Assembly (NCBI GenBank): GCA_027371535.1
Contig: DAHXMV010000001.1
Coordinates: forward strand, 172,825-236,824
DNA length: 64,000 nucleotides
From: Candidatus Amesbacteria bacterium
GTDB taxonomy: Bacteria; Patescibacteriota; Microgenomatia; CAZETR01; Amesbacteraceae
Direction of reading: 5' to 3'
In this document: piece by piece, positions 2,363 through 55,877 of the stretch
Numbering within the stretch: position 1 is the first letter of the stretch
Layout: every line of letters begins with the position of its first letter
Notes under the pieces: model-generated
Seen by the model: only the letters and a program-made list of their open reading frames with translations
Told to the model about the DNA's origin: nothing
Database searches by the model: none
Program-made: the position numbers and the translations under genes

Positions 2363-2370
2363 AATTTTGA

Positions 2371-3288: not shown

Positions 3289-3290
3289 AA

Positions 3291-8088: not shown

Positions 8089-9208
8089 AATTTTTCTGTA
8101 CGGACGATAAGTAAACAGCATAACTATTTATGATCTGATTCCAGCTGAAATTTTTTGCAAATTTCCTGCCTTTTTGGGCTAAAACTTTCGACTGACGGGG
8201 GTTGTTTAATATATTTTGGATATGACGACTCAATGCGTGGACATCAAAACAGGCGGTTTTCAGACAACAATCAGCCGGCACCCATTTAAGGCCGTCGATA
8301 TCAAAAGTCACCAAAGGTTTTTGATAGGCCAAAACTTCCAAGGCAGCGAAGGAAAATGTTTCAAAACGGGATGGTACTACCACCAAATCAGCCGAAACAA
8401 ACAAAGCAAATTTTTCCCGCCCAGTTACTCTGCCAGGCAGGATTACCCTGTCAGAAAGACCCAGCCTGCCAATCATTAATTTCAGAGCACTGACTTCGGC
8501 AGCCGTACCTGAGCCGGCAATTACCAACCTACCTGAATATCCGGGCAACAGCAGTGAATACGCCCGAAGCAATAAATCCAAACCTTTCTGATTTATTTCA
8601 ATCCGACCGATAAATAAAATATAGTTACCGGAAACCGGCTTTTTAGGTAACACCGGGATATCTATACCGTTGGGAATTACTTGAATCTTGGATCCGGGGG
8701 TTTTGGAGTGTACTAACTGACGGATCTGATCACTAGTGACGTGAATATAAGAATAGGTTTTAAGGCCTAAATTTTCGGCCAGTTTAAACGGCAGATGGTA
8801 CTTGCGCTGCATATCTTCACCAGCCAACATATGGACGCTGCCGATAACCGGTTTATTGGTAAAAAGTGGCAGACAGGTAGTAGAAAACGGAGGGGTAAAA
8901 CTTTCCAACCAGATATCGAAGGGTAATCTGAAAATCAGGCTTATAAGTGACAACTGGTAGGCTAACTGACCCAGTTTAGGACCAAAATTACCGCTACCTA
9001 CATATCGATATTCAACCCCATCGATTCTTTCATTCAGACAGCCGGGATATTTACCGGCCATAACCAGCACCCGGAAACCCATTTTCTGCAAACCGGTGGC
9101 AATTTTGAGAACAGCAAAAGCCCCGCCTCCGGCATAGTACGGGTTTTTCGGGCTATCATAATTACTGATAACCAGGCGGGTTTGATGATCAGTCTGCGGG
9201 TGCATACC
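8072..9208 (-). CDS. glycosyltransferase family 4 (GT-B, group 1)
   Basis: The N-terminus contains a YYAGGG donor-binding motif. The C-terminal GT-B domain is similar to GT4 enzymes. The start is probably MHPQ. It overlaps the 3' end of the upstream giant gene by a few codons. Confidence 0.65.
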   Translation of the reverse strand, partial: GMHPQTDHQTRLVISNYDSPKNPYYAGGGAFAVLKIATGLQKMGFRVLVMAGKYPGCLNERIDGVEYRYVGSGNFGPKLGQLAYQLSLISLIFRLPFDIWLESFTPPFSTTCLPLFTNKPVIGSVHMLAGEDMQRKYHLPFKLAENLGLKTYSYIHVTSDQIRQLVHSKTPGSKIQVIPNGIDIPVLPKKPVSGNYILFIGRIEINQKGLDLLLRAYSLLLPGYSGRLVIAGSGTAAEVSALKLMIGRLGLSDRVILPGRVTGREKFALFVSADLVVVPSRFETFSFAALEVLAYQKPLVTFDIDGLKWVPADCCLKTACFDVHALSRHIQNILNNPRQSKVLAQKGRKFAKNFSWNQIINSYAVYLSSVQKNYGTSA

Positions 9209-12200
9209 AGCTTTGGGTTTGGGGCAGTTGGGTTTGAGAATTAAGACTAGATTCAATCACGGATATAAACTGGTCGGCTTTGGAATTCCAGTCGAACAAG
9301 CGCGACCAAGTCAGAGCTGCCCGGGAAAACCTAGTGAGGTTATCAGTATTTTTCACCAGATCTAGCATGACCCGGGTTAAAAATTCTATATTTTTAACCG
9401 GAACCAAAACACCCGTCCGGCCGGAGGCTACAGAGTCACGCAAACCACCCACATCTGAAGCAATCACCGGAGTGCCACAGGCATTAGCTTCAATCACGGT
9501 GATACCCCAGCCCTCAAAGGAAGAAGGCTGAAGCATGGCCCAACCCCTGCCCAGAAGTTCGCTTTTTTGTTTTTCACTGACTCTTTGGGTAAATATCACG
9601 GATTTACCAAGATGCAGTTTGGCGGCCAGGGCCCGCAGATTATCCAAATTTTCACCCCAGCCGGAAATGAAAAACCTGGCTGCAGGATAACTTTTTACCA
9701 CCACGGCAAAGGCTTTGATGGCAACATCGATATTTTTATACGGCCTGAGGCGCCCCAAATAGATGAAAGAAGGGTAGGGGGTCTTTGGACAGGGGTGAAA
9801 CATATCCGGATCAATGCCGGGATTTACTACAGAAATATCCTGAGCAGGAGCCAAACCCAGGTCAACAATATCAGTTTTGGAGGATTCGGAAACGGTGAGC
9901 ACCTGATGATGTTTATAAACCAATGGCATCACCTTCGATTCCAAAAACACAGCCAGCGAGGAAAGAGGAAATGCCAGATGTTCACGAAAAACATTCTGGT
10001 GGATATGGTGGATTAACAGAAAAACAGGCAGACGTGAATATATGGGGGTAAAAAACGGAATCCCGTTTTCACAGTCTATAATAACATCAAATTGACCCCT
10101 GAATTTAAGGAAATAATAGATGACAGCCCAGATATAGACCGTAAAGAAACCACCACGCCGGATTATCCGGACGCCATTTTTAATCTCATTCCTCCGGGAC
10201 TTACCGTCGTTCCCGCAAAAAACAGTCACCTGATAACCCTGACTGACCCAACGCTTTGACATCTCCTGGATATAAACTTCCGCACCGCCAGCCCAGACAT
10301 GTCCGGTATCCCGCCAGTTAAAAATTAACAAGCGGAGTTTTTGGGAATTGTAAATCTGATTATCAGGCAAGCCCCGGAACAAGCCTGTAAAATCCGCAAA
10401 ATTACGGATTAAATTCTTTATCTGGTCATAATACAGGTGCCCAAGGCCAACCAGAAACAGATAAAAAATGCTGTAGTAAAACATGGCATAAACAAAAGCC
10501 GTCAAATTGTTTTTGGCAGAGTATAAAAAGAGCACCTGTACGGGCGAGGTTATGACACTTAAATAACTAAAAATATACTGATGGCGGATTTGGTAGTAAT
10601 TGACAATATTACTGGCGATAGTAAAAGCCACCATAGCCAATGTAAACCACGGTAATAAACCGGAAAGAGGCAATATTTTGCTACCAAAAAGAAGGGGGGC
10701 GGTTATCTTACCGAAAACTCCGAAAACCACTGATACTGCCAGAGAAACAAGAGTAGTCACCAACAAAATCCGATAGAAAATCTGTTTGGAATTTTTTCCG
10801 GCCCCCTCTGCCCGGCTGACCAGGGGGGTAATAAACTGGGAAAAAGTCCCGCCGGCAAAATAAACCATTTTCCCGACCAGGGAAATCAGGGCATACTGAC
10901 CTGCCTGGACGGGGTTTAAAAACATTTTGGCAAAGACGATATCCAGACTCAAAAAAGACAGGGCTGAAATTCTGACCAAAAGAGAGGAAGCAAAAAATTT
11001 CCGGGGAAAATGGGTAACTGCAGCTTTATCCGGCAAGGGAGCTGAAGTTTTAAGAGTCCGAGCTGCCAGCCAGGTAAACAAAAAGGGAAACGAGGAGGCC
11101 AGGGGGATAGCTGCATAAACCAGATTGTTCCATCCTAAATGGATAAACAACATGGTCAGCAGGAATTTAATGACTGATTCCGAAACGGTAGCTACAGCCA
11201 GAATAGTAAACCGCGTATTGCCAGCTAAAAATCCGCCGTCAACTGCCGATAAAGTGCCGATAATCCATACAGGAGAAAATAATATAAAAGGAAATGCCGA
11301 ATGACTGCCGAAAACTGCCGGTAACCAGGGAGACAAAATTAACCAAAGCGCGGTTATAACCAGTGATAAACGAAAAACATTTTCCCTGATGTAGGCCCAA
11401 AATTGTTTAGGTATCAGGTTAAACCGGCCGAACAGAAAACCGCTTCTGTAGGTCACTGTCCTGGCCAAAGCACCGGCCGGAATTTCCAGCAAATTGTAAA
11501 AACTGCCCATCAGGCTGATAATCCCGAAGTCCGAAAGAGTGATTCCCGGGCTATGACTTAAAAAGGCATTGTATAAGAAATTGAAAAAATTACTGAAGAC
11601 CGAGGATGCTATCAAGGCTCCGGCTCCCAGGTTCTGGCGGGAAAAAAGCGATTTAACGGAGGTAAAATTAAAAGCCAATTCCGGGGTGAGAACGATATGT
11701 TCCGGGACAGTTTTGGGGTCCAAATTAATACCGTGGTGGGTTTTTTCCCAATAATGAGGTTTTACTACCAACTGATATACAGCCTTGACAGCGGCAAAAC
11801 TGATCATCAACCAATAAAACGGCACCAGATAAATATATTTCACCAGGTCCCAGCGGTCCCTTTTGGCGCAGCCAATCATGTAGTTATAAAAGAACATAAA
11901 GTTACCGATAACAGCCGAGAAAACAGCCATATAGAAAATTATCGGAGGATAGATAGCTTCGATTTGGGGTCCGACATACCGGTAGAGGGTAAAGTAGGCG
12001 ATAGTTGTCAACCAGAGGAAAGGATTAATAACCATAAAGGTGATACGCAAGCCGATGACCAGTTGAAAAATCAGAGCATGGATTCCGTGTTTTTTCAGAA
12101 AAGCCAAGGGGTGGCGGTTGTGGACCAAAAAAGTCTGGATGTAGCCTTTGATCCAGCGTGAACGCTGCCGGATCCAACTGGCCAGATTCCCGTTGGCTTC

Positions 12201-13814
12201 CTCGAGGGTGGTGGAATCAATCATGGCTGTCTGGAATCCGTTTTTGAATAAGCGGGCGCCCAAATCGCAATCTTCAGTGACATTGAAAGCATCCCAACCG
12301 TGGAGGGATTTCAAGACCCGGGTACGAAAATGGTTGGAGGTTCCGCCCAACGGGATAGTGGTATTAATTGATTGCAGTCCGGGCAACACCACGTCAAACC
12401 AAAGTGAATATTCAGCGGTGAACAAACGGGTAAGCAAGTTTCGGCCGGGGTTGTAAAAATTCAATTTTCCCTGCAGACAGGCCACTTTTTGTGGCGAGTT
12501 CAGAAAACCCAGATAAGCTTTTTTCAGCTGCAACGGATCCGGTTGGTCTTCGGCATCATAAACAACCACATACTCCCCCCTGACAAAGTTCAGGCCGTAA
12601 TTACAGGCTTTGGGTTTAGTTTTAGGTTGCGAATCGGGGACGATAATCGTCCTGATATATGAAGGCAATCCATAATTTTGGGCAGCGGTGATTGTGGCCT
12701 GATCATCAGCTTCCAAAAGCAGTATCACATCCAATTTATTTTTCGGCCAATCGACTCCGGTGATGGAATCTACAAAAGCCGGCAGCACACCCGCTTCCCG
12801 GTATAGAGGACACAGAATGCTATAAACAGGCAAATCCACACGGTCCAGTGAGGCCAAATCAGAGTCCGAAAAGGTTAATTCCGGCGGGAAATGCAAACTT
12901 TTCAGGACTATATACAGACTGAACAGGGTATCCAACAAATAAATTGAGGTCAGAATGGCTGTCAAAAAAATGGCAGTATTTAACGGGGTGAAATAAAAAC
13001 CTAAAAGAACTAATAACAAACAAACCAACAATCCGGCTTTCTGCCAAGGGTAGAGTGTAGGAACGGCGGAGTCTGACAGAGGCAGACGGGTATGGGTCAC
13101 AAAGCGATGTTTTTTGTGGACAATACCCGAACCGATATTATTTTCCGGGTACGGACCATTGATCGCAAAAAGTGATGGGGTATGGATTTTGGTCTTCAAG
13201 ACAGCGGTAAAATGCTGCCATGCTGAGATCTCTTCCCGATTGGCGGGGATGTCCTGGAAAACTTCAGCCACGGAATATCCAAGCTGTATGGCAGTATGCA
13301 GAAGCCAAATGTCAATGTCATTTTTACCAAGTTTTCCAAGAGGCAAATAATCTACTAAAACCCGGGGAAGAATCTTTAGGCCGGAATTGACATCATACTG
13401 AATACCCAACAAAGTCCTGGTCAGTGAATTATGAATGCGGGAGAATCTACTATTTTTGCGGCTGGCGATAATAACCTGATTCTCGGGCAGTAAATCCAGC
13501 ATCCGGGTAAAAACATCACGACTAAAAGGGGTGTTTTCGTCATAATAAGCTATAAATTCAGCCTGAGACGCGGACATTCCGTCTAACAAGGATTGGGTTT
13601 TACCATCCCGGCTGGTCTGAATAATCTTTATAGGATAATCTTTGGATAGTTTTTCCAGCGATCGTTGGTTATTTATTACTCCCCGTTCAAGTGCCAGGAT
13701 AAAAGTATACGAAATCCGGACATGATTCAGAACCTGCTGAAATTGATCTAATAGCGGGATAAGAGATCCCGATTTCCGGTTAATCCGGATAATAATATCC
13801 AGGTTATCTTTCAT
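9189..13814 (-). CDS. 1541-aa multidomain polysaccharide synthase fusion: N-terminal GT2-like domain, processive GT2 domain (DAED, TED, QRSRW motifs) with TM bundle, Wzx/MATE-like polysaccharide flippase-like TM region, C-terminal GT4 domain
   Basis: A single uninterrupted ORF. Residues ~330-560 carry PVYSILCPLYRE..YDAEDQ..TEDCDLG..QRSRWIKG, the hallmarks of cellulose/chitin/hyaluronan-synthase-like GT2. Residues ~700-1150 are about 12 TM helices. The C-terminus carries EGWGITVIEANACGTPVIASDVGG, a GT4 E-x7-E region. Confidence 0.7.
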   Translation of the reverse strand: MKDNLDIIIRINRKSGSLIPLLDQFQQVLNHVRISYTFILALERGVINNQRSLEKLSKDYPIKIIQTSRDGKTQSLLDGMSASQAEFIAYYDENTPFSRDVFTRMLDLLPENQVIIASRKNSRFSRIHNSLTRTLLGIQYDVNSGLKILPRVLVDYLPLGKLGKNDIDIWLLHTAIQLGYSVAEVFQDIPANREEISAWQHFTAVLKTKIHTPSLFAINGPYPENNIGSGIVHKKHRFVTHTRLPLSDSAVPTLYPWQKAGLLVCLLLVLLGFYFTPLNTAIFLTAILTSIYLLDTLFSLYIVLKSLHFPPELTFSDSDLASLDRVDLPVYSILCPLYREAGVLPAFVDSITGVDWPKNKLDVILLLEADDQATITAAQNYGLPSYIRTIIVPDSQPKTKPKACNYGLNFVRGEYVVVYDAEDQPDPLQLKKAYLGFLNSPQKVACLQGKLNFYNPGRNLLTRLFTAEYSLWFDVVLPGLQSINTTIPLGGTSNHFRTRVLKSLHGWDAFNVTEDCDLGARLFKNGFQTAMIDSTTLEEANGNLASWIRQRSRWIKGYIQTFLVHNRHPLAFLKKHGIHALIFQLVIGLRITFMVINPFLWLTTIAYFTLYRYVGPQIEAIYPPIIFYMAVFSAVIGNFMFFYNYMIGCAKRDRWDLVKYIYLVPFYWLMISFAAVKAVYQLVVKPHYWEKTHHGINLDPKTVPEHIVLTPELAFNFTSVKSLFSRQNLGAGALIASSVFSNFFNFLYNAFLSHSPGITLSDFGIISLMGSFYNLLEIPAGALARTVTYRSGFLFGRFNLIPKQFWAYIRENVFRLSLVITALWLILSPWLPAVFGSHSAFPFILFSPVWIIGTLSAVDGGFLAGNTRFTILAVATVSESVIKFLLTMLFIHLGWNNLVYAAIPLASSFPFLFTWLAARTLKTSAPLPDKAAVTHFPRKFFASSLLVRISALSFLSLDIVFAKMFLNPVQAGQYALISLVGKMVYFAGGTFSQFITPLVSRAEGAGKNSKQIFYRILLVTTLVSLAVSVVFGVFGKITAPLLFGSKILPLSGLLPWFTLAMVAFTIASNIVNYYQIRHQYIFSYLSVITSPVQVLFLYSAKNNLTAFVYAMFYYSIFYLFLVGLGHLYYDQIKNLIRNFADFTGLFRGLPDNQIYNSQKLRLLIFNWRDTGHVWAGGAEVYIQEMSKRWVSQGYQVTVFCGNDGKSRRNEIKNGVRIIRRGGFFTVYIWAVIYYFLKFRGQFDVIIDCENGIPFFTPIYSRLPVFLLIHHIHQNVFREHLAFPLSSLAVFLESKVMPLVYKHHQVLTVSESSKTDIVDLGLAPAQDISVVNPGIDPDMFHPCPKTPYPSFIYLGRLRPYKNIDVAIKAFAVVVKSYPAARFFISGWGENLDNLRALAAKLHLGKSVIFTQRVSEKQKSELLGRGWAMLQPSSFEGWGITVIEANACGTPVIASDVGGLRDSVASGRTGVLVPVKNIEFLTRVMLDLVKNTDNLTRFSRAALTWSRLFDWNSKADQFISVIESSLNSQTQLPQTQSWYAPAD

Positions 13815-22017: not shown

Positions 22018-23856
22018 ATGATATCTGACATCAGAAATATTGCAATTATCGCCCATGTGGACCATGGAAAAACCACCCTGGTAGACGGGATGCTGAAACA
22101 GACCCATGAATTTCGGGAAAACCAGGCAGAAATGCAACAAACAACAATTTTAGACAGCAATGCCCTGGAAAGAGAAAAAGGGATCACAATTCTGGCTAAA
22201 AATACAGCGGTATTTTACAAAGGGGTAAAAATAAATATTATTGATACTCCGGGACATGCCGATTTCGGGGGCGAAGTGGAACGGGTTCTTAACATGGCCG
22301 ATGCGGCTTTATTGATTGTAGACGCAGCTGAAGGACCGCTGCCGCAAACTAAATTTGTGCTGCAAAAGGCCCTGCACACCGGATTAAAAATTATCCTGGT
22401 AATTAACAAAATCGACAAAAAAGACGCCCGGGTAAATGAAGTACTGGCTGAGTCTGAAGAGTTATTTTTGAAGCTGGCCACCAATACCCAGCATCTGGAT
22501 TTTCCGGTAATTTATGCGGTCGGACGGGACGGCAAAGCCTTTGACCGGTGTCCCGAAATTTATAATCCAAATGCACCGGGAGATCTGACACCACTGTTTG
22601 ATCTGATTCTGAAAGAGGTGCCCAATGCAGTAACAGGGACAGAAGAGCCGCTGCAAATGCTGATTTCGACACTGGACTTTGATAATCATCTGGGCAAATT
22701 GGGAATCGGCAGAATCCGAAGGGGGAAAATTTTCAAAGGCCAGAGAGTGGTGCAGTTAACCCCGGAAAAAATCTTAGGCACATTTGTGATTGAAAAACTT
22801 TATACCAGCCACGGGATTGTCCGGGAAGAAATTGATGAGGCCGGCAGCGGGGATATTATTACTCTCGCCGGGGTCAAAGACATCGAAATCGGGCAGACAA
22901 TCTGTGATCCGGCCGTTCCCCTGGCTTTACCGACAATCACAGTCGAAGAGCCGACTCTGAAAATTACCATCGGGGCAAATACCTCCCCATTTGCCGGAAG
23001 AGAAGGCAAGTTTGTTACCAGCAGACAGATCGGTGAAAGATTAACCAGAGAAAAAGAGACGAACCTAGGCCTAAGAATTAATGAAATCGGCGGAGGGATA
23101 TTCGAGGTAGCCGGACGGGGAGAACTTCATCTGGCAATTCTGATTGAAACCATGAGGCGGGAGGGCTATGAGATGGAGGTGTCCAAACCGCAGGTGATTT
23201 TAAAAAACGGCCTGGAACCATACGACGAAGTGGCCATTGAAGTACCCGATGAATACGTAGGCGAAATCACCAGCGAGATGGGCAAACGCCGGGGGGAAAT
23301 GCTGGATATGAAAGCCGACGGTAAGGGCGACACAAAAATGGTTTATAAAATTTCCCAACGGAACATGATCGGAGCCAGAAATACTTTGCTGACTGCTACC
23401 AGGGGCACAGCAGTGTTAAATAACGTATTTGCGGGATATGACCAGCCAGGGCCGGTTATCGGGGATTTAAGAAACGGCGTTCTGACTGCATTCGAAACCG
23501 GTAAAGCGCTGGCTTATTCTCTGGAGGCGGCCCAGCAGAGAGGGGTGACATTTATAGAACCCAACGAAGAGGTGTATGAAGGGATGATTGTGGGATTGAA
23601 CAACCGGGAAAATGACATCGATATGAATGTGACGAAAGGAAAACATTTAACAAACACCCGGTCGGCCAATAAGGACATCCGGACCATATTAACCCCGGCG
23701 TATAAAATGAGCCTGGAACAGGCACTGGATTTTATTGAAGATGACGAACTGCTGGAAGTGACGCCACAAAGCCTGAGGATGCGTAAAAAATTGCTCAATA
23801 AAATTGACCGGATCAGGTATAAGAGATCAGCAAATTCTCGACTTCAGTCCAATTAA
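22018..23856 (+). CDS. typA: translational GTPase TypA/BipA
   Basis: AHVDHGKTTL, DTPGHADF and NKID G-domain motifs. EF-G-like domain order at 613 aa. Confidence 0.85.
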   Translation: MISDIRNIAIIAHVDHGKTTLVDGMLKQTHEFRENQAEMQQTTILDSNALEREKGITILAKNTAVFYKGVKINIIDTPGHADFGGEVERVLNMADAALLIVDAAEGPLPQTKFVLQKALHTGLKIILVINKIDKKDARVNEVLAESEELFLKLATNTQHLDFPVIYAVGRDGKAFDRCPEIYNPNAPGDLTPLFDLILKEVPNAVTGTEEPLQMLISTLDFDNHLGKLGIGRIRRGKIFKGQRVVQLTPEKILGTFVIEKLYTSHGIVREEIDEAGSGDIITLAGVKDIEIGQTICDPAVPLALPTITVEEPTLKITIGANTSPFAGREGKFVTSRQIGERLTREKETNLGLRINEIGGGIFEVAGRGELHLAILIETMRREGYEMEVSKPQVILKNGLEPYDEVAIEVPDEYVGEITSEMGKRRGEMLDMKADGKGDTKMVYKISQRNMIGARNTLLTATRGTAVLNNVFAGYDQPGPVIGDLRNGVLTAFETGKALAYSLEAAQQRGVTFIEPNEEVYEGMIVGLNNRENDIDMNVTKGKHLTNTRSANKDIRTILTPAYKMSLEQALDFIEDDELLEVTPQSLRMRKKLLNKIDRIRYKRSANSRLQSN

Positions 23857-24415
23857 CCACGTTCCACCAGGCTTCCAGGTATTCAGAGCGGCGATTCTGA
23901 TATTTGAGATAGTAAGCGTGTTCCCAAACATCAACAGCCAATAAAGGATTTTTTTGTTCTGTTAACGGTGAATCCTGATTGGAAGTTTCCATAACCGACA
24001 GATGATCATGATCAATAACCAGCCAGGCCCAGCCGCTGCCGAAGTGATTTTGAGCCACTGAAAGAAACTTTTCCCTGAATGTATCCAAATTGCCGAAATC
24101 CCGATTAATGAGCTTTAAGACTGCGGTCGTGGGAGAAGGTTTAGCCGGGCTCATCCATTTCCAAAACCGGGCATGATTATCAGCGCCACCGGCGTTGTTT
24201 TTAACTTTCTGGCGGAAATTTTCCGGCACTACCGAAGGATTTTTTAATATTTCTTCGGGACTTTTAGCTAAAAGATCCGGTAAACCCGATAATAAATCAT
24301 TGTAATTCTTTACATAAGCGGCGTGATGTTTGTCGTGGTGGAAAAGCATGGTTTGCTTATCGATATAAGGCTCCAAAGCATCTGCCGGATAAGGCAATTC
24401 GGGAAGTACAAACAT
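23813..24415 (-). CDS. sodA: Fe/Mn superoxide dismutase
   Basis: N-terminal LPELPYPADALEPYIDKQTMLFHHDKHHAAYV and C-terminal DVWEHAYYL metal-ligand motifs. Confidence 0.85.
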   Translation of the reverse strand: MFVLPELPYPADALEPYIDKQTMLFHHDKHHAAYVKNYNDLLSGLPDLLAKSPEEILKNPSVVPENFRQKVKNNAGGADNHARFWKWMSPAKPSPTTAVLKLINRDFGNLDTFREKFLSVAQNHFGSGWAWLVIDHDHLSVMETSNQDSPLTEQKNPLLAVDVWEHAYYLKYQNRRSEYLEAWWNVVNWTEVENLLISYT

Positions 24416-29979: not shown

Positions 29980-30252
29980 CTAATAAGCTTCAAAAAAGGG
30001 AAAGTTCCTTACCGGTCCTGTTTTGACTTTAAAATCTTTAATCTTAATCGGGGAAGGAATGGTTTTACACCATTCAACAAACTTTTCCAAATCACTGTTT
30101 TGGCCTTCTACTGCCAAACTCACACCTCCGTCCGGTTCATTCCTTACCCAACCGGTAAGATTAAGATTTTTGGCTTTTTGACTGCAGCTATAACGAAATC
30201 CAACACCCTGCACCCGGCCGGTGACGAAAATATCCAAATGAATTTTGAGCAT
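29980..30252 (-). CDS. acyP: acylphosphatase
   Basis: VTGRVQGVGFR and GWVRNEPDGGV motifs. 90 aa. Confidence 0.8.
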   Translation of the reverse strand: MLKIHLDIFVTGRVQGVGFRYSCSQKAKNLNLTGWVRNEPDGGVSLAVEGQNSDLEKFVEWCKTIPSPIKIKDFKVKTGPVRNFPFFEAY

Positions 30253-30258
30253 CAGATT

Positions 30259-30714
30259 TCAGACCGCCTGTAAAATTTCCCCCGCATGACCTTTGGGAGT
30301 GACGTGGGGAAAAACCTTATTTATTATACCTTTGGGATCTATCAGGTAAGTCATTCGCCTGGTTCCGGTAAATTCCCGGCCCATAAATTTTTTAGTGCCC
30401 CAGGCACCGTAATTTTGAATGACGGATTTGGATTCGTCACTTAGGAGGGGGAAATTGAGCTTATATTTACCGGAAAATCCGGCATGAGAAGTGACAGAAT
30501 CTTTAGATATTCCCAACACTATAATTTTTTTATCGGCCAGATCTTTGAAACTGTCTCTGAATTCACAGGCTTCCACGGTACAACCCGGGGTATCATCCCT
30601 GGGGTAAAAATAGACTACCACCCACCTGCCCCGATAATCACTTAACCGATGCAGTTTACCATCCTGATCGGGCAGGGAAAAATCCGGGGCATGGGTACCG
30701 ACAGCCGGTTCCAT
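30259..30714 (-). CDS. bcp: peroxiredoxin, Bcp/PrxQ type
   Basis: VVVYFYPRDDTPGCTVEAC carries the peroxidatic Cys motif. 151 aa. Confidence 0.8.
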   Translation of the reverse strand: MEPAVGTHAPDFSLPDQDGKLHRLSDYRGRWVVVYFYPRDDTPGCTVEACEFRDSFKDLADKKIIVLGISKDSVTSHAGFSGKYKLNFPLLSDESKSVIQNYGAWGTKKFMGREFTGTRRMTYLIDPKGIINKVFPHVTPKGHAGEILQAV

Positions 30715-30726
30715 ATAATATTAAAC

Positions 30727-31320
30727 TCAGGATAACACAATTTTCATAATATAACCCGAACCTCTTAAAGTATAAATGAGAGGTTTATCATTAATACCAA
30801 CTTTAAGTTTACGCCGCAAATAACGAAATTAGGTTTCGATAATATTTGACATACCGGAATAATCATAATTCCAGATATTATCCATAATCCGCTGTTTGGT
30901 CAGGACTACATTTGGATGGCGCAGGAAGTACTCCAGTAAAGCAAATCCGCGGCCGGCGGCTTTTTTTCTGTCTAAAAATTTGCGGACTTTTTTAACCAAA
31001 CCGGTCAACGAAAAAGGCTTTGTCAGGTAATCATCCGCCCCGGCATTCAAAAAAGACACCGGCGAACAATGAAGATCTTCCGGAACCAATACCGGTACAG
31101 AAAAAGCAGGGTGTTCCCGACGCAGTCTGTGAAGGTAATCCAACAAATCTCCTCCGGCAATTTCCACATCGGCTATCAGCAGGTTGAATTTACCCACGCG
31201 GTTTACCGGAGGTAATTCATCCACCCGGAAGACCAGACAAATTCCGAAACCATCCGCCATCAAACCCCGCCTGATAAAATTAGCGATTTTGGCTTCCGAT
31301 TCGGCTACCAGAATATGCAT
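30727..31320 (-). pseudogene. OmpR-family response regulator interrupted by an in-frame TAA (at 30829-30831); receiver domain atypical
   Basis: The ORF track ends at ..DYSGMSNIIET. Translating the same frame past the TAA gives FRYLRRKLKVGINDKPLIYTLRGSGYIMKIVLS, the conserved C-terminal wing of OmpR-type DNA-binding domains (stop at 30727-30729). Confidence 0.6.
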
Positions 31321-33584: not shown

Positions 33585-35147
33585 TTACTCTTCGAACACC
33601 TGAGTCTGAAAGACGGAAATGACCGACTGCGGATCTTTGTAACAGTCAGCAGGCAATCCGGCCTTTTGCAGGCAAAGCTGTTCCAAAAAGGCGGTTTCAT
33701 CCCAGTGATTTTCCGCGGCTACCTGGGGGAGAAAAGTGCCTGCATGCCGGCCATTTTGAATTACCACCCCATCCCGGCCATAACGGATCATCCGCCAGGA
33801 AGAAATTTGTTTGGGCGGGGTCATGACGGATAATTCAATGTGAACCCGGTCCAGATCGCTTTTTGGCAGCGGATCAAATCTGGGATCCTGAGCAGCGGAT
33901 TTAACAATAGTCCGCTGAATAACCCGGTATAAAGGATCCGCGGGTTCAAACTCACCGATACAGCCGCGCAGTTGTCCGTTTTGGGTAAGAGTCACAAATA
34001 CCCCCAGGGGTTTTAACAGATCGGGGTTTTTGGGTTTTTCCGAACGGAATTTTTTACCGTTTAAATAATCCGCCAGGGCCTGCCGGGCTATTGTAACCGC
34101 TTCTTTCTCGGCAGGCCGGGAGAGGATGATTTTCGGCGATTCCAATTGATCTTTTACCCCAACAACCGCACCATATCCGACTACCCGGGCAGGATCACCT
34201 CCCGGAATATCTCCGGAATTGGCATATTTAACCAACTGAAAATCGGTAATATTTAATTTTGCCGCCACCAATAAGGCGATTTTTATGGCTTCCTGACCGC
34301 AGGCACTGGTAGCCAGATTTGAATAATTTTTGTCAGCTTGTTTATCGATGACCTGTGTAAATTTCCCAACCTCTCCCGTAAGGATGGCTGCCAGAGTCTG
34401 GTGGTCAACGATATTTGCCGTTTGCCGGTCGGGATAATGCGACAGGTCAGTACTGACCACCAGTAAAGTATCGTCATCAAAATTATCGGCAATGGCAGCA
34501 GCTAATTGATCCCGCAGGGTTTCTGAGGGCTGGCTGACTAAAATGGGAACTATGGTAAAGTCTTTCATTACAGACTGCAAAAAGATCAACTCCATTTCCA
34601 GAGAATGTTCATTTAAATGAACCGAGGCATCTGACCGGATGCCGATAGCGGGATTGATCAAATATGCTGCCAAAGCGGCATTGACGGGGATATCCCCCAG
34701 CGGGGTGCGCCAGACACCGTCGGGAAAAACAGCTGCCTCGGTAAAAGCATAATTATGGCTGGGACCTAAAAGGATGATTTTGGAATATTTAAACCCTTGA
34801 AGCTGGTCAAAACCGGCCGCAGCCACATAACCAGCATATTCAATACCGGCATGGGGAACAATCAGGATCCGGGGTTTTTGGGTGACGGTTTTTTTGGCCC
34901 CGGCCAAATCAATACGCATGACTGCCCGGAGGGATATGGGGTCGCCGGGATAAAAAGAACCCGAAACGGCGGGGTCTCTGATAACTGCGGCCGCATCCGG
35001 GTTTTGAGAGTTCGGAGCAAAACTGAGACCGGACTGGGGAGAAATGGTATTCCGGGGAGAGTTTTTTTTAAAAATTAAAAACCATATCAGAAAGACGGCG
35101 ACAACCAAAACCGACAAAACAGCTAAAGGTTCCCTGGAAGCCCCCAT
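33585..35147 (-). CDS. membrane-anchored fusion of MEMO1-like (AmmeMemoRadiSam system protein B) and AMMECR1 (protein A) domains
   Basis: N-terminal TM helix. The MEMO-like region is ILVPHAGIEYAGYVAAAGFDQL...IILLGPSHNY...VVSTDLSHY. The C-terminal AMMECR1 region carries LGVFVTLTQNGQLRGCIGEF. Confidence 0.65.
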   Translation of the reverse strand: MGASREPLAVLSVLVVAVFLIWFLIFKKNSPRNTISPQSGLSFAPNSQNPDAAAVIRDPAVSGSFYPGDPISLRAVMRIDLAGAKKTVTQKPRILIVPHAGIEYAGYVAAAGFDQLQGFKYSKIILLGPSHNYAFTEAAVFPDGVWRTPLGDIPVNAALAAYLINPAIGIRSDASVHLNEHSLEMELIFLQSVMKDFTIVPILVSQPSETLRDQLAAAIADNFDDDTLLVVSTDLSHYPDRQTANIVDHQTLAAILTGEVGKFTQVIDKQADKNYSNLATSACGQEAIKIALLVAAKLNITDFQLVKYANSGDIPGGDPARVVGYGAVVGVKDQLESPKIILSRPAEKEAVTIARQALADYLNGKKFRSEKPKNPDLLKPLGVFVTLTQNGQLRGCIGEFEPADPLYRVIQRTIVKSAAQDPRFDPLPKSDLDRVHIELSVMTPPKQISSWRMIRYGRDGVVIQNGRHAGTFLPQVAAENHWDETAFLEQLCLQKAGLPADCYKDPQSVISVFQTQVFEE

Positions 35148-35170: not shown

Positions 35171-36361
35171 TTAACAATAATTATTTTTTTGACAAAATGA
35201 TTCCAAACGGTCAAAAGCCAGATTAATTATCTGCGGACCGGCGGAAAAAGACAGGCGTAAATGTCCCTTGCCGGACGGACCCATACTATCACCGGGAATG
35301 GTGATGACTTGAGCCTCATCAACCAGGCGTTTGGCCAAATCCAGGGCAGATAAACCGGGAGGTAGGATTCTGGGAAAAAGATAAAAAGATCCATGAGGCG
35401 GATTGAAGGCAAAAAGTTTTGACAGAGATGCCATCCGCTGACAGATAACTTCCCGGCTTTTGGTAATTTCAGATTTAAATTCTTTCATCGCCCCCTGACC
35501 GCGGGGATCATTCAAAACAATCGTCGCAGCCACGATGGAAATTGTGGCGGGGTTAAGGGAAAAGTGCAGGTGAATGCTGGATATCTTTCTGATAATTTCA
35601 GGATCAGCCACCACATAACCGATTCGCCAGCCGGTCATGGCAAATTCTTTGGAAAAACTTTTGGAGAGGATAATTCTTTGCCGAAGTTCGGGTATGAACA
35701 TCGGACTATAAAGTTCCCGGTCATAGGTCAGGTAAGCATAAGCTTCATCAACCACCAAATATAAATTATGCTTCAGGATAATACGGGAGAGTTGTTCAAC
35801 CTGTTCCCGGGAAAGGACGGTGCCGGTGGGATTATTGGGGTTTGTCAGAATCACAGCTTTGGTTTTGGGGGTGACGGCAGCGGTTAATTTGTCCATATCC
35901 GGGGACCAATCGCGTTTTTCATCCAGGGGAACAAAGACCGGTTTGGCCTGGGCCAGGGCCAGCTGGGACAGATGCAGGGGGTAGCCGGGGTCAAAATAAA
36001 TGACCTCGTCTCCCGGTTCCAAAATAGACATCAAAGAGGCAAACAAACCCCCGATGCCGCCCAAAGTCAGATAGATCTGATTGCGGTCCGGTGTAAATCC
36101 GTATTTTTCCGATATATCTTTAATCAAAAGTTCTTTTAAAGGAGACTGAATCTTATCGTTTTCGGAGTTGTACGAACCCAAGAGCGGATCGGTTTTGGAT
36201 CTGGCATATAATTCGTCATAAACAAATTGCGGGGTTTTAAACTGAGGAGCACCCTGGCCAAGAGAAATGACGTCAGAATAGCGGGCGGCGTAACTCATGA
36301 TGGTGCCGATGCCGGAATCGGGGACATCCGCCACACGGCGGGAAAAATTATAATTGCCCAT
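35171..36361 (-). CDS. class I/II PLP-dependent aminotransferase
   Basis: SKSFSKEFAMTGWRIGY carries the Schiff-base Lys. 396 aa. Confidence 0.75.
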   Translation of the reverse strand: MGNYNFSRRVADVPDSGIGTIMSYAARYSDVISLGQGAPQFKTPQFVYDELYARSKTDPLLGSYNSENDKIQSPLKELLIKDISEKYGFTPDRNQIYLTLGGIGGLFASLMSILEPGDEVIYFDPGYPLHLSQLALAQAKPVFVPLDEKRDWSPDMDKLTAAVTPKTKAVILTNPNNPTGTVLSREQVEQLSRIILKHNLYLVVDEAYAYLTYDRELYSPMFIPELRQRIILSKSFSKEFAMTGWRIGYVVADPEIIRKISSIHLHFSLNPATISIVAATIVLNDPRGQGAMKEFKSEITKSREVICQRMASLSKLFAFNPPHGSFYLFPRILPPGLSALDLAKRLVDEAQVITIPGDSMGPSGKGHLRLSFSAGPQIINLAFDRLESFCQKNNYC

Positions 36362-38949: not shown

Positions 38950-39170
38950 TTAGACCGGTTTTTCTAAACACGCTTGGAGTTGATGGTAATACCGGAGTTT
39001 GAATTTTGTGGGAGGCATTTTCAGGGTAGTGTGAATCCTTTTGTGGTTGTAATAGTTAATAGCCTGATAGATAGCTTCCACCAGTTCTCCGAGGGTGCCG
39101 AAACGATCAAATTCCAACCCTAAATCAGTCATAAAGATAACCCACAACCTTACGGTCGGGGATTCAAGTT
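38950..39170 (-). mobile_element. remnant of a DDE transposase (C-terminal end of rve/integrase core); decayed IS
   Basis: TDLGLEFDRFG...YNHKRIHTTLKMPPTKF is the characteristic C-terminus of IS3/IS481-type transposases. The upstream frame is closed by a stop at 39169-39171. The following ~250 bp is non-coding. Confidence 0.5.
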
Positions 39171-46545: not shown

Positions 46546-47562
46546 ATGTCAGGTAGGTACAATGGCTGCTACATGCGCGGTTTCAAAATACTTCCGGTGA
46601 TGTCGTTATCCCGTATATCCACTTTGTCCAGGGATGGCTTGAAGCGGTTGGAGTGGATTGATTGGTACTATACCCACGAGAAGAATGCTGAAGGCACTTG
46701 CAGACATTTCAGTCTGTCCAAATCAGTGTTTTACCGGTGGTTAAACCGGTTTGACAAGTACAACCTGGCTACGCTGGAGTTTGATACCCAAACCAGGAGG
46801 CCAGAACATCTGAGAAAGATGACTACTCCAAGAGAGGTTATCAGTTTGGTATGCCAGATTCGGAAAGACGATCCAGAAAAATCAAAGTATGAAATACAGG
46901 CTGAACTCAGAGAAATACATGGAGTAACTTTGGGTTACAACACCATCCAAAAGATTATCAACCGAGACCCCAGACTAGCCATTTTGAAGAAGAAAATCAA
47001 ACGTCACAAAAATCACAAGATTGACCGGATGCCAGCTGCATATGATCTCAAAGACCGGGATGTGGGGTCTTTGGTTCAGGTAGACACCAAGCACTATTAT
47101 GTCCTGGGAGAGAGGTATTACATATTTGCGGCAGTAGACTGTAAATCCAGATATGCCTATACCTACGCCTACACCAGAATCTCTTCCAGTTCTGCCCAGG
47201 ATTTTTTAACCAGAGTAAAAGCTTATTTTCCTTTTCCCATGTCAGCCATTAATACAGACAACGGATCAGAATATCTTTTGTATTTTCACAAATTAACTAA
47301 AGATTTAGGCATACCCCATTACTTTTCCCGGCCCCGAACCCCCACCATGAACTCCAGGGTGGAAAGACTAATTCAAACGCTGGAGTATGAATTTTTAAAC
47401 TATCAAACCATTAGTCCGGAGATTTCCCAGGTGAGAGAAATGTGTGAAAAATTTAATACAAAATACAATCAACAGAGGTATCACCGGGCTTTAAATTATC
47501 AAACACCACAGATGTATGTTAAAACCTATTTACAGAAAGGAGGTCAACCGTTCTCTATCTAG
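46546..47562 (+). mobile_element. IS481-family-like insertion sequence: single DDE transposase ORF (HTH + rve integrase core); element ends not determined
   Basis: HTH region SKSVFYRWLNRF. DDE triad context LVQVDTKHYY / FAAVDCKSRYAY / INTDNGSEY. C-terminal YNQQRYHRALNYQTP. Flanked by ~180 bp and ~375 bp of non-coding DNA. Terminal inverted repeats could not be confirmed by eye. Confidence 0.6.
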
Positions 47563-47939: not shown

Positions 47940-48599
47940 TTACCAGGGACGGATCCGGCCGGCAAACCAGAAATTGCCGGTTGGATGAGAACGGGTCACC
48001 AATTCATACAATTCTTTGGCGGGAAATTCGGGTTCTCTGGGAGCCTGCGGACCTCCCATGTCCGTTTTTACCCAACCCGGGTCAAAAGCCGATACTGTGA
48101 TGTTTTTAAGACGATCTGCCAGGGTTTTGAGATACATATTGAGGGCGGTCTTGCTGATCCTGTAAGCCGGACAAACTCCGTTATCAAATCGGGTCAGGGA
48201 AGACATCATTGAGGAAACGGCAACTATCTGGCCATCGGACTTAATCAGAGGCAATATTCCCTCCGTAAAAGCGATCGTTCCGATTAGATTTATTTCCAAA
48301 ACCCGGCGGAGTACAGAGATATCGATCCGGTTTTCATCCGGTTCAAAACTGGCACCGGCGCAATTTATTAAAACGTCAATTTAGGGATATTTTTTAGTAA
48401 TATTTTGTACAGCTGAAGAAATACTTTCGGGATCGCTTAAATCCGTTACAAAATGGACATAGTTTGGGTGTTTGAGGTTTCTGTTTTCAGATGTCGAGGC
48501 ACCCAAAACCAACCAACCTTCAGCCAGAAATTTTTTGGCGGCAGCTAAACCGATTCCCCGGCTGGAACCGGTAATAAGAACTTTATTTTCTGTGTTCAT
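47940..48599 (-). pseudogene. short-chain dehydrogenase/reductase (SDR) interrupted by an in-frame TAA at 48381-48383
   Basis: The N-terminal part has TGSSRGIGLAAAK (Rossmann). The same frame continues past the TAA as IDVLINCAGASFEPDE... and then into the catalytic part ...SSLTRFDNGVCPAYRISKTALNMY (YxxxK). The ORF track shows this as two pieces. Confidence 0.6.
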
Positions 48600-55259: not shown

Positions 55260-55877
55260 TTACCCACAAATTATTAGTAAATTGGTGAGTTTGCGGGCAA
55301 GTTCCACCCGGGGAAAAATAATTTTTAATTTTTCGACCAGATCTCCCGCTTTGGCCTGTTTTTCCGGATCATAAAAAAGATGGTTAAAAATGACGCAGGA
55401 TCCAAGCAACTTGAGTTTCCTGAGAAACTTGTCAGAATAGACAAATACGGGGAGCTGATCGCCATAGTACATATCAACGAGGATAAAATCGAAGCATGAT
55501 TTTTGATTCATGATATATGAATGGGCGTCGGCATTAATAATTTCCAGGCAGGGAATTTTAGTCAGATCCAAATATTTTTTTCCCAGGTCAATCATTAACG
55601 GATCAATCTCCACACCGGTGATTTTTTCGGGTCTTAATTTATCCGATATGGTTTTGGCTATAGTCCCGCCGGCCAAACCAAGAATAAGCCAGGATTTGTT
55701 TTTTTGACCATATTTGCTTAAGACTCCTTCCCAGACCTCCTTTACCAATCCCCCGCTCTGGGTAAGCATCCCCGTGGCAATATATTTATAGCCCCACCCG
55801 GAAATGACTTTGACATCACCACTATATTCGGACCGGCGGCGTTCTATAATTTTAGGTCCCAAATGTAACCAGGACAT
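55260..55877 (-). CDS. class I SAM-dependent methyltransferase, spermidine/spermine synthase-like
   Basis: ILGLAGGTIAK (a G-rich SAM loop) and VDMYYGD. 205 aa. Confidence 0.5.
   Translation of the reverse strand: MSWLHLGPKIIERRRSEYSGDVKVISGWGYKYIATGMLTQSGGLVKEVWEGVLSKYGQKNKSWLILGLAGGTIAKTISDKLRPEKITGVEIDPLMIDLGKKYLDLTKIPCLEIINADAHSYIMNQKSCFDFILVDMYYGDQLPVFVYSDKFLRKLKLLGSCVIFNHLFYDPEKQAKAGDLVEKLKIIFPRVELARKLTNLLIICG

What the first reader, a model, noticed from the sequence alone, without database searches (positions are those of the whole stretch)
33585..35147. Membrane-anchored MEMO1-AMMECR1 fusion without the radical-SAM partner
The AmmeMemoRadiSam system normally has three separate proteins: AMMECR1, a MEMO1-like protein, and a radical SAM enzyme. 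Here the MEMO-like and AMMECR1 (LRGCIGEF) domains are fused behind an N-terminal TM helix. No radical SAM gene is in the window. The flanking genes are an aminotransferase and a hypothetical protein.
Basis: partly seen in the sequence, partly recalled or inferred. Interest (0 to 1): 0.5.

Follow-up and report, generated by a model that had tools for sequence, protein, structure and literature searches.

The report
Solitary membrane-anchored Memo–AMMECR1 fusion enzyme
This gene encodes an intact Memo–AMMECR1 fusion protein held on the cell membrane by one N-terminal helix; it is an ordinary member of a large, already-annotated family, and that family's relatives suggest this enigmatic enzyme system also works at the cell envelope, not only inside the cell.

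Summary
ORF 33585-35147 (-) encodes 520 aa: a TM helix (6-26), a disordered tether (27-54), a Memo domain (TIGR04336, 217 bits) and an AMMECR1 domain (TIGR04335, 165 bits). All predicted catalytic residues are intact. No radical SAM (RS) gene lies in the window or in 15 kb of extra flank.

It is not unusual. The Memo-AMMECR1 fusion was reported in 2007 and occurs in at least 585 species-representative genomes. All 120 best database hits are such fusions, and about three quarters have an N-terminal anchor. Among 29 Patescibacteria loci with anchored fusions, 20 show no RS gene within about 10 kb, as here.

Other relatives do carry the TIGR04337 RS nearby, and it has its own targeting sequence. 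In Patescibacteria this is an N-terminal helix. In Bacteroidota, Ignavibacteriota and Chlorobiota it is a Tat-like signal, next to fusions with lipoprotein or Sec signals. A polytopic spermine-synthase-like membrane protein accompanies these RS genes, as does a DsbD_2 protein in Patescibacteria.

The window gene is therefore a solitary copy of an envelope-associated variant of the system. Two things remain open: which side of the membrane it faces (I lean outward, about 0.6), and whether an RS cluster lies elsewhere in this genome.

The parts
33585..35147 (-). Complete ORF (520 aa plus stop) for the anchored Memo-AMMECR1 (AmmeMemoRadiSam B-A) fusion protein.
35070..35132 (-). N-terminal transmembrane helix, residues 6-26 (EPLAVLSVLVVAVFLIWFLIF). 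It has no lipobox Cys, no AxA cleavage site and no twin-arginine motif. One K/R precedes it (R5, net charge 0 with E6); K27, K28 and R32 follow it.
34986..35069 (-). Flexible S/P/N/Q-rich tether, residues 27-54. pLDDT is below 50 for residues 28-52.
34155..34985 (-). Memo (protein B) domain, residues 55-331. The putative metal-site residues H99, H131, D234, H237 and C283 are all conserved.
34119..34154 (-). Short interdomain linker, residues 332-343.
33588..34118 (-). AMMECR1 (protein A) domain, residues 344-520.
33954..33971 (-). LRGCIG (residues 393-398). This is the RGChG active-site motif, with the invariant Cys396.
33876..33887 (-). DPRF (residues 421-424). This is the DxRa active-site motif.
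35171..36361 (-). Context only: a class I/II aminotransferase whose stop lies 23 nt upstream, so it is probably co-transcribed. It is not conserved next to the fusion in relatives.

Best explanation
**What it is (shown).** The gene is an intact member of a distinct, widespread lineage of AmmeMemoRadiSam B-A fusion proteins that carry an N-terminal membrane anchor or export signal. The protein has one N-terminal helix, a flexible tether of about 25 residues, and then a compact Memo domain and an AMMECR1 domain.

**How it most likely works (inferred).**
- The helix holds the two catalytic domains at the surface of the cytoplasmic membrane. I lean towards the outer face, with probability about 0.6.
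- The Memo domain carries a His/His/Asp/His/Cys metal centre. The AMMECR1 domain carries a cleft with the invariant Cys396.
- The two domains carry out consecutive steps on a membrane- or envelope-associated substrate, not on cytoplasmic RNA.

**The partner (shown in relatives, inferred here).** In this lineage the cognate TIGR04337 radical SAM enzyme is itself anchored or Tat-tagged. It sits in a cluster with a polytopic spermine-synthase-like membrane protein and, in Patescibacteria, a DsbD_2 membrane protein. That cluster is often not adjacent to the fusion gene. In this genome it is therefore either encoded elsewhere or has been lost. In the latter case the B-A pair would act without a radical SAM partner, as MEMO1 and AMMECR1 do in eukaryotes.
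For: **Identity and intactness**
- Both domains score far above their curated cut-offs.
- The predicted structure is confident (pLDDT 90). It matches MEMO1 at TM 0.82 and PH0010/AMMECR1 at TM 0.78.
- H99, H131, D234, H237, C283, G395, C396, G398, D421, R423 and F424 are invariant in a 33-sequence alignment. C283 and C396 are invariant in 198 fusion sequences.
- The metal-site residues align with the equivalent MEMO1 motifs.

**A distinct lineage**
- The window protein is 44-54% identical to the 119 best database hits other than itself, and all of them are fusions.
- It is only 33% and 41% identical to the stand-alone B and A proteins of L003, but 51% identical to the anchored fusion encoded next to them.

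**The anchor is conserved**
- 91 of the 120 best hits have an N-terminal hydrophobic segment. At least one 'unanchored' database entry (P0082) is a truncated gene call.

**The whole system has an envelope version**
- 73 of the 120 best Patescibacteria-type RS hits carry an 'MKKxLxGL...' N-terminal helix. They are bona fide TIGR04337 members at 382-391 bits against a cut-off of 220, and the profile match starts only at residue 41-43.
- All 27 diderm RS proteins with an N-terminal extension have a twin-basic Tat-like motif, against 0 of 46 soluble RS proteins.
- Two of seven tested N-termini pass TIGR01409.
- Diderm fusions have Sec or lipoprotein-type signals.
- A membrane spermine-synthase-like protein accompanies 29 of the 32 loci that have an anchored or Tat-like RS, and none of the loci that have only a soluble RS (L092, which carries both RS types, also has it).
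- DsbD_2 (65-75 bits against a gathering threshold of 24.9) occurs in Patescibacteria clusters L009, L016, L088, L089 and L092.

**Solitary copies are normal**
- 20 of 29 Patescibacteria loci with anchored fusions have no RS gene in the fetched flanks.
Against: **Topology is not settled**
- In the window protein one K/R precedes the helix and three follow it.
- Across 81 TM-type relatives, K+R averages 1.6 before the helix and 3.5 in the 15 residues after it. The C-side count is higher in 62 of 81. Taken alone, the positive-inside rule therefore predicts cytoplasmic domains.
- A soluble RS gene lies directly beside a TM-type fusion in L003, L030, L054 and L092.
- An Fe-S radical SAM enzyme behind a plain hydrophobic helix cannot be exported by Sec. 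The Patescibacteria anchors give no Tat-signal hit.
- No residue or cysteine signature separates anchored from unanchored fusions.

**Other gaps**
- No substrate is known for any member of the system.
- None of the accessory genes (RS, DsbD_2, membrane spermine-synthase-like) is within the 79 kb examined.
- The window's flanking genes are not conserved next to the fusion in relatives.
Confidence: 0.6

Rival explanations
1. **Cytoplasm-facing tether (N-out/C-in).** The helix only docks the B-A enzyme on the inner face of the membrane. There it works with cytoplasmic radical SAM enzymes (soluble or anchored in the same way) on a lipid-embedded substrate.
For: - The positive-inside rule favours this orientation: the window protein has 1 K/R before the helix and 3 after it, and the C-side count is higher in 62 of 81 relatives.
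- A soluble RS gene lies directly beside a TM-type fusion in L003, L030, L054 and L092.
- Fe-S cluster and SAM chemistry is expected in the cytoplasm. This rests on established knowledge of radical SAM enzymes, not on a tool result.
- The Patescibacteria RS anchors give no Tat-signal hit.
Against: - Patescibacteria relatives in the same lineage have canonical lipoboxes at the end of the hydrophobic segment: P0056, P0069, P0085, P0100, P0120, L008 and L015.
- Diderm orthologues have cleavable Sec or lipoprotein signals, and their RS proteins carry Tat-like signals.
- A DsbD_2 family protein is linked to the clusters.
- The N-termini of both proteins usually begin 'MKK/MRK', which is typical of N-in signal anchors.
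- By net charge, the RS anchors favour N-in in 45 of 73 sequences.
Confidence: 0.38
2. **Radical-SAM-independent enzyme.** This lineage has lost the RS gene, and the B-A pair works alone at the membrane, as MEMO1 and AMMECR1 do in eukaryotes.
For: - No RS gene lies in the 79 kb examined.
- 20 of 29 Patescibacteria loci with anchored fusions lack an RS gene in their flanks. These include the three closest relatives on long contigs.
- Eukaryotes keep MEMO1 and AMMECR1 without the TIGR04337 enzyme. This is my own knowledge and was not tested here.
Against: - Only about a quarter of the 320-kb contig could be seen, and none of the rest of the genome.
- Close relatives at 47-50% identity (P0029, P0043, P0062, P0069, P0077) share contigs with anchored RS genes.
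- In L092 the anchored RS cluster and the fusion are separate units, so absence from the neighbourhood says little.
Confidence: 0.3
3. **Membrane-tethered RNA or nucleotide base-modification enzyme.** This is the classical prediction for AMMECR1.
For: - Balaji & Aravind 2007 and Burroughs & Aravind 2014 predicted an RNA base modification from the RAGNYA fold and from archaeal gene neighbourhoods.
- The catalytic motifs are the same as in the archaeal proteins.
Against: - Anchors, lipoprotein signals and Tat-like signals are conserved on all components.
- The linked genes encode membrane proteins (spermine-synthase-like, DsbD_2).
- No RNA-related gene is consistently linked in the 86 distinct loci surveyed.
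Confidence: 0.05
4. **Decaying relic.** The gene is a non-functional remnant of a lost system.
For: The gene is solitary. An IS element and several truncated genes lie nearby in the window.
Against: - The reading frame is full-length and every conserved catalytic residue is retained.
- The fold prediction is confident.
- The same solitary arrangement recurs across many divergent lineages at 44-54% identity, which implies purifying selection.
Confidence: 0.03

Closest known systems
Annotated 'AmmeMemoRadiSam system protein B/protein A' fusion proteins of Patescibacteria (for example P0029 from a Microgenomates-group MAG, or P0002)
   Same: - The architecture is identical: N-terminal helix, tether, Memo domain, AMMECR1 domain, at about 500-520 aa.
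- Identity is 44-54%, with the same invariant residues.
   Different: - The window protein is a new sequence: it forms a singleton cluster and its best relative is 54% identical.
- Some relatives (P0029/L088, P0069/L089) sit in clusters with an anchored RS, DsbD_2 and a spermine-synthase-like membrane protein. The window copy is solitary.
Canonical three-gene AmmeMemoRadiSam system (TIGR04337 RS, TIGR04336 B, TIGR04335 A as separate soluble proteins; for example L003 7673-9985)
   Same: - Both B and A domains pass the family models.
- The catalytic motifs are the same.
- In L003 the anchored fusion lies immediately downstream of such a triad.
   Different: - Here B and A are fused and carry a TM anchor.
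- Identity to the stand-alone B and A of L003 is only 33% and 41%.
- No RS gene lies in the 79 kb examined.
Human MEMO1 (PDB 3BCZ, 7KQ8 iron-bound, 7L5C copper-bound)
   Same: - The fold is the same (Foldseek TM 0.82 normalised to MEMO1, 24% identity).
- The His/His/Asp/His/Cys site aligns.
   Different: - MEMO1 is a soluble, single-domain cytosolic protein with no AMMECR1 fusion.
- Its described roles (metal binding, redox, signalling adaptor) come from the literature (PMC7694686) and cannot be transferred to this protein.
Archaeal AMMECR1 homologues PH0010 (1VAJ), ST0229 (1WSC) and MM0484 (1ZQ7)
   Same: - The fold is the same: TM 0.78, rmsd 1.9 Å and 39% identity to PH0010.
- The RGChG and DxRa motifs are present.
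   Different: - The archaeal proteins are stand-alone cytoplasmic proteins of unknown function.
- They have been linked by prediction to RNA modification.
- Here the domain is fused to Memo and tethered to the membrane.
Bacteroidota/Ignavibacteriota/Chlorobiota cluster: lipoprotein-type B-A fusion, membrane spermine-synthase-like protein, Tat-like RS (for example L036, L049, L062)
   Same: - The B-A fusion is homologous (36-39% identity).
- It also carries an N-terminal targeting sequence.
   Different: - The signals there are cleavable Sec or lipoprotein signals rather than a TM helix.
- The gene sits in a conserved three-gene operon with the RS and the spermine-synthase-like gene. The window has neither of those genes.

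Membership tests
AmmeMemoRadiSam system protein B / Memo (TIGR04336, PF01875) | Profile score above the curated cut-off over the full domain | tested here: met
   TIGR04336 scores 217 bits against a cut-off of 26, covering profile positions 1-269 of 270. Pfam Memo scores 184 bits against 27.
AmmeMemoRadiSam system protein B / Memo (TIGR04336, PF01875) | Conserved metal-site residues (His, His, Asp, His, Cys) and a LigB/MEMO1-type fold | tested here: met
   H99, H131, D234, H237 and C283 are invariant. They align with the MEMO1 motifs. The Foldseek TM-score to MEMO1 is 0.82.
AmmeMemoRadiSam system protein A / AMMECR1 (TIGR04335, PF01871) | Profile score above the curated cut-off | tested here: met
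   TIGR04335 scores 165 bits against a cut-off of 99. Pfam AMMECR1 scores 168 bits against 25, covering positions 1-168 of 168.
AmmeMemoRadiSam system protein A / AMMECR1 (TIGR04335, PF01871) | RGChG and DxRa active-site motifs (Balaji & Aravind 2007) and the PH0010-type fold | tested here: met
   R394-G-C396-I-G398 and D421-P-R423-F424 are present. The TM-score to 1VAJ is 0.78.
Complete AmmeMemoRadiSam system (three components) | A TIGR04337 radical SAM enzyme encoded nearby | tested here: not met
   No CX3CX2C motif and no phmmer hit in the window or in 15.3 kb of flank, about 79 kb in all.
Complete AmmeMemoRadiSam system (three components) | A TIGR04337 radical SAM enzyme anywhere in the same genome | not testable with these tools
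   The rest of the 320,099-bp contig and the rest of the MAG could not be fetched. No RS hit with that contig length appeared among the best 120, which is inconclusive.
Anchored/exported variant of the system (as seen in L009, L016, L088, L089, L092 and the diderm clusters) | N-terminal anchor or signal on the B-A fusion | tested here: met
   Helix at residues 6-26. The feature is conserved in 91 of the 120 best hits.
Anchored/exported variant of the system (as seen in L009, L016, L088, L089, L092 and the diderm clusters) | Linked anchored or Tat-like RS, membrane spermine-synthase-like protein and (in Patescibacteria) DsbD_2 | tested here: not met
   phmmer finds none of these in the window or its flanks. 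The only hit is a small soluble Spermine_synth-like ORF at 55260-55877.
Bacterial lipoprotein (signal peptidase II substrate) | Lipobox [LVI][ASTVI][GAS]C at the end of the hydrophobic region | tested here: not met
   The window protein has no Cys in its first 60 residues. Some relatives do have a lipobox.
Tat substrate | Twin-arginine motif in the N-terminal region | tested here: not met
   The window protein has the N-terminal region MGASRE with a single Arg. The Tat-like motif is seen only on the RS proteins of diderm relatives.
Extracytoplasmic (outward-facing) protein | The C-terminal domains lie outside the cytoplasmic membrane | tested here: inconclusive
   Signals in relatives and the DsbD_2 linkage favour an outward orientation. 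Flank charges and adjacency to soluble RS genes favour an inward one. No topology predictor or experiment was available.

The most novel reading that the evidence does not exclude
**Claim.** The window protein would be the solitary B-A component of an extracytoplasmic version of the AmmeMemoRadiSam system. As far as I could check, this version has not been described.

**What that version would look like.**
- Even the radical SAM enzyme is exported or anchored: through a Tat-type signal in Bacteroidota, Ignavibacteriota and Chlorobiota, and through an N-terminal anchor in Patescibacteria.
- It works with a polytopic spermine-synthase-like membrane protein and a DsbD_2 protein on a cell-envelope substrate.

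**What would follow if true.**
- This would be a radical SAM enzyme acting outside the cytoplasm.
- The biochemical role of the conserved MEMO1/AMMECR1 pair would move from RNA modification towards membrane or envelope chemistry.

**Caveat.** Burroughs et al. 2019 (JBC 294:10211; PMC6664185), which analysed Memo gene contexts, could not be read here. It may already describe some of this.
Probability: 0.3. Interest if true: 0.8.

Novelty: new member of a known kind. Interest (0 to 1): 0.42.

Why it matters
- **An open question.** MEMO1 and AMMECR1 are conserved from archaea to humans and are linked to human disease, yet neither has a known reaction. The prokaryotic three-gene system is the main lead, and no functional study of it turned up in the literature searches.
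- **The window gene itself is ordinary.** It is one more solitary anchored copy in a Patescibacteria-type genome.
- **What the family context adds.** Placing the gene in context exposes a coherent variant of the whole system. Every component is membrane-bound or carries an export signal, and two further membrane proteins are linked to it.
- **Consequences.**
  - The possible substrates narrow to membrane or envelope molecules.
  - The variant is hard to reconcile with a purely RNA-directed function.
  - If the Tat-type signals are functional, radical SAM chemistry would occur outside the cytoplasm.
- **Testable materials.** The Bacteroidota operons in cultivable relatives, and solitary B-A copies that may work without the radical SAM enzyme, as in eukaryotes.

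Tried and rejected
1. **RS gene in or near the window.** Searched with the CX3CX2C motif in six frames, with phmmer using a TIGR04337 enzyme, and by extending both ends of the window. Nothing was found. Two of the extension look-ups failed because my start calls for ORFs 62970-63851 and 61149-62957 did not match the recorded genes.
2. **RS gene elsewhere in the same genome.** I searched the protein database with a Patescibacteria RS profile and looked for the contig length 320,099. It was not among the best 120 hits, which is inconclusive. The genome is not among the species representatives returned. The cluster look-up gave no name or accession.
3. **Conserved neighbours of the window gene.** I tested the aminotransferase, the 140-aa protein, the 631-aa protein and SHOCT. 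None recurs next to fusions elsewhere, so I reject a functional operon link.
4. **A sequence signature of compartment.** I compared cysteine content and discriminating columns between anchored and unanchored fusions. There is none.
5. **Positive-inside analysis of the anchors.** It gives conflicting answers depending on whether K+R counts or net charges are used.
6. **Formal Tat-signal HMMs.**
   - TIGR01409 passes for only 2 of 7 diderm RS N-termini and is borderline for one more.
   - Pfam TAT_signal stays below threshold.
   - So 'Tat-like' remains an inference from the motif.
7. **Tat genes next to the clusters.** TatA or TatC genes were found only once: a TatA-like ORF in L081.
8. **An apparent exception.** P0082 looked like an unanchored fusion beside an anchored RS. 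It turned out to be a truncated gene call.
9. **An alternative internal start.** A conserved Met just before the Memo domain is only modestly enriched (13 of 109 against 3.4% expected). I did not pursue it.
10. **Burroughs et al. 2019.** The paper could not be retrieved.
Full report
**1. The observation**

The minus-strand ORF 33585-35147 encodes 520 aa. Both domains are confirmed by profile searches:
- Pfam Memo covers residues 59-328 (184 bits) and Pfam AMMECR1 covers 351-518 (168 bits).
- NCBIfam assigns AmmeMemoRadiSam protein B (TIGR04336, 217 bits against a cut-off of 26) and protein A (TIGR04335, 165 bits against 99).

The structural evidence agrees:
- An AlphaFold2 model built on 33 homologues is confident (pLDDT 90.2, pTM 0.77). 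It shows a helix at 6-26, a disordered tether at 28-52, a Memo domain at 55-331 and an AMMECR1 domain at 344-519.
- The model matches MEMO1 at TM 0.82 and PH0010 at TM 0.78.

The TM helix cannot be removed by choosing another start codon.

The window holds no radical SAM gene:
- CX3CX2C is absent from every ORF of 70 aa or more. In six frames it occurs only in open stretches of 20 and 13 codons.
- A TIGR04337-type query finds nothing.
- I extended the view by 9.9 kb on the left and 5.4 kb on the right. The result was the same.

**2. The protein is intact**

- The Memo residues H99, H131, D234, H237 and C283 are invariant among relatives. They align with the MEMO1 motifs PHAGY, GPSHH, SSDFCHW and ICG.
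- The AMMECR1 active-site motifs defined by Balaji & Aravind (RGChG and DxRa) are present as R394-G-C396-I-G398 and D421-P-R423-F424.
- C283 and C396 are conserved in all 198 fusion sequences compared.

**3. It is not unusual**

- The AMMECR1-dioxygenase fusion and its radical SAM neighbourhood were described in 2007 (PMC2034487).
- Of 5,632 database hits, the best 120 all carry both domains at about 460-560 aa. The 119 other than the query's own entry are 44-54% identical to it. Where named, they are called 'AmmeMemoRadiSam system protein B/protein A' and come from Microgenomates or Patescibacteria MAGs.
- A scan of species-representative genomes found at least 585 loci. They fall in Patescibacteria, Bacteroidota, Ignavibacteriota, Chlorobiota, Campylobacterota, Desulfobulbaceae and Anaerolineae.
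- The anchor is the rule: 91 of the 120 best hits have an N-terminal hydrophobic segment. At least one 'unanchored' entry is a truncated gene call.
- The window protein is 51% identical to the anchored fusion of L003. It is only 33% and 41% identical to the stand-alone B and A proteins encoded right beside that fusion. The anchored fusions are therefore a paralogous lineage of their own.

**4. Where the radical SAM partner is**

I surveyed 86 distinct loci. The patterns were as follows.

(a) Patescibacteria loci with anchored fusions, 29 including the window:
- 20 have no RS gene in the fetched flanks. These include the three nearest relatives on long contigs.
- 6 have an RS with an N-terminal TM helix: L009, L012, L016, L088, L089 and L092.
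- 4 have a soluble RS beside the fusion: L003, L030, L054 and L092, which has both types.

(b) Truly unanchored fusions (L011, L026) have a soluble RS directly upstream.

(c) In Bacteroidota, Ignavibacteriota and Chlorobiota there is a conserved operon. It runs from a fusion with a Sec or lipoprotein-type signal, through a 700-860 aa polytopic membrane protein, to an RS of 372-398 aa. The RS has an N-terminal extension of about 50 residues.

The extended RS proteins are genuine TIGR04337 members (349-391 bits against a cut-off of 220). The profile match begins only at residue 41-62.

A database search with a Patescibacteria RS profile showed that 73 of the best 120 hits carry the anchor 'MKKxLxGL plus a helix of about 20 aa'. 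Several of them share contigs with close relatives of the window protein.

**5. Accessory genes**

- **Spermine-synthase-like membrane protein.**
  - The intervening membrane protein has a Spermine_synth domain (PF01564, 53-79 bits against a threshold of 22.9).
  - Homologues accompany 29 of the 32 loci that have an anchored or Tat-like RS.
  - None of the loci that have only a soluble RS has one. L092, which has both RS types, also carries it.
- **DsbD_2.** A DsbD_2 protein (PF13386, 65-75 bits against 24.9) is present in L009, L016, L088, L089 and L092.
- **MJ0753_N-like module.** This Cys-rich module is a separate gene in Patescibacteria. It matches part of the larger spermine-synthase-like proteins of Bacteroidota.
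- **In the window.** None of these genes is in the window. The only related ORF is a small soluble Spermine_synth-like one at 55260-55877.

**6. Which side of the membrane**

Evidence for outward-facing:
- Diderm fusions have typical cleavable signals, many ending in Cys.
- A Patescibacteria subclade has canonical lipoboxes, such as LSGC and LAGC followed by a conserved K-x-D-K-x-L motif.
- All 27 extended diderm RS proteins have a twin-basic motif. 24 of them fit [STNGI][KR]R.F[LIV][KRQG], against 0 of 46 soluble RS proteins. Many are followed by a Gly/Ala-rich hydrophobic region, and several by an AxA-like site.
- TIGR01409 passes for 2 of 7 tested N-termini and is borderline for one more.
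- A DsbD-family membrane protein is linked to the clusters.

Evidence for inward-facing:
- In the window protein and in 62 of 81 TM-type relatives, more K/R follow the helix than precede it.
- Soluble RS genes abut TM-type fusions in four loci.
- An Fe-S enzyme behind a plain hydrophobic helix cannot use Sec. The Patescibacteria anchors show no Tat signature.
- Net charge around the RS anchors points the other way, favouring N-in in 45 of 73.

I could not run a topology predictor. My judgement is about 0.6 outward for the window protein. It rests mainly on the prior that N-terminal 'MKK-helix' proteins are signal anchors and on the export signals of homologues.

**7. Mechanism**

Shown: the protein is a tethered, two-domain enzyme with both predicted active sites intact.

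Inferred:
- It acts at the membrane surface on a membrane- or envelope-associated molecule.
- The Memo metal centre and the AMMECR1 thiol cleft perform consecutive steps.
- Where the RS is present, it performs a radical step in the same pathway.

The classical prediction is an RNA base modification. It does not fit a version in which every component is membrane-bound or carries an export signal. From memory, the abstract of Burroughs et al. 2019 links Memo contexts to 'nucleotide base and aliphatic isoprenoid modification'. That would be compatible with a lipid substrate, but I could not read the paper.

**8. Novelty and verdict**

- The window gene is a new sequence of a known, annotated kind.
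- Its solitary state is typical for its clade and is shown for only 79 kb.
- The wider pattern is the interesting by-product: an anchored or Tat-tagged RS, a spermine-synthase-like membrane protein and DsbD_2. It deserves follow-up in cultivable Bacteroidota. It is not encoded in this window and may be partly published already.
- Interest: moderate.

Noticed in passing
L036, L038, L039, L042, L043, L045, L046, L049, L053, L057, L062, L066, L072-L074, L077, L081 and others (for example L036 236-5537): In Bacteroidota, Ignavibacteriota and Chlorobiota there is a conserved operon. It runs from a lipoprotein- or Sec-signal B-A fusion, through a 700-860 aa polytopic Spermine_synth-domain membrane protein, to a TIGR04337 radical SAM enzyme. 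The RS has an N-terminal extension of about 50 aa bearing a Tat-like [ST][KR]RxF[IL][KR] motif, mostly K-R rather than R-R. This would imply a periplasmic radical SAM enzyme.
   Followed up: partly
L088 4450-11162; L089 7469-11065; L092 4435-11431; L009; L016: In Patescibacteria there are clusters joining a DsbD_2 membrane protein, an MJ0753_N-like Cys-rich protein, a TIGR04337 RS with an N-terminal TM helix, a spermine-synthase-like membrane protein (absent from L089) and the anchored B-A fusion. L092 additionally has a second, soluble RS directly upstream of the fusion.
   Followed up: partly
L092 about 9890-10000 (upstream of P0082): The database gene call for fusion P0082 starts at an internal Met. 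An in-frame upstream ATG adds a TM helix (MKPIIVIASTAVIIFGLLLFL...). Some 'unanchored' entries are therefore start-call artefacts. A Met 2-4 residues before the conserved Arg of the Memo domain is mildly enriched (13 of 109). It could be the ancestral start or an alternative one.
   Followed up: partly
window 29980-30252 (-) and L003 7341-7613: An acylphosphatase gene lies 3.3 kb downstream of the fusion in the window. Its homologue (E 6e-23) lies directly upstream of the RS-B-A-fusion set in L003. This is the only window neighbour that recurs near the system.
   Followed up: partly
window 55260-55877 (-): A small (205 aa) soluble Spermine_synth-like methyltransferase-fold ORF (Pfam 31 bits). 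It is only weakly similar to the membrane spermine-synthase-like proteins of the clusters and lies 20 kb from the fusion.
   Followed up: partly
window 46546-47562 (+) and 38950-39147 (-): An IS-type transposase (HTH plus rve integrase core), and a separate 65-aa ORF that looks like the C-terminal fragment of another rve integrase. Together they point to mobile-element activity in this region.
   Followed up: no
window 30829-31320 (-): An OmpR-type response regulator that appears truncated. It is 163 aa, and the Trans_reg_C match covers only profile positions 9-47 of 77.
   Followed up: no
window 47940-48599 (-): Two adjacent same-strand ORFs of 72 aa and 119 aa. The first starts with an SDR-like 'LITGSSRGIGLA' motif. 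They look like one short-chain dehydrogenase split by a frameshift or stop, next to the IS element. This was judged from the translation only.
   Followed up: no
window 1103-13814 (-) and L090 10872-11411: A long run of glycosyltransferase and membrane genes, including a 1,541-aa multi-GT protein (9189-13814). A sortase gene lies just outside the left end of the window. Both fit a monoderm-type, surface-decorated Patescibacteria envelope.
   Followed up: no
window 23813-24415 (-) and 30259-30714 (-): A Fe/Mn superoxide dismutase and an AhpC/TSA peroxiredoxin lie within 10 kb of the fusion. The organism therefore meets oxygen stress, which is relevant if the Memo domain uses O2 or redox-active metal.
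   Followed up: no
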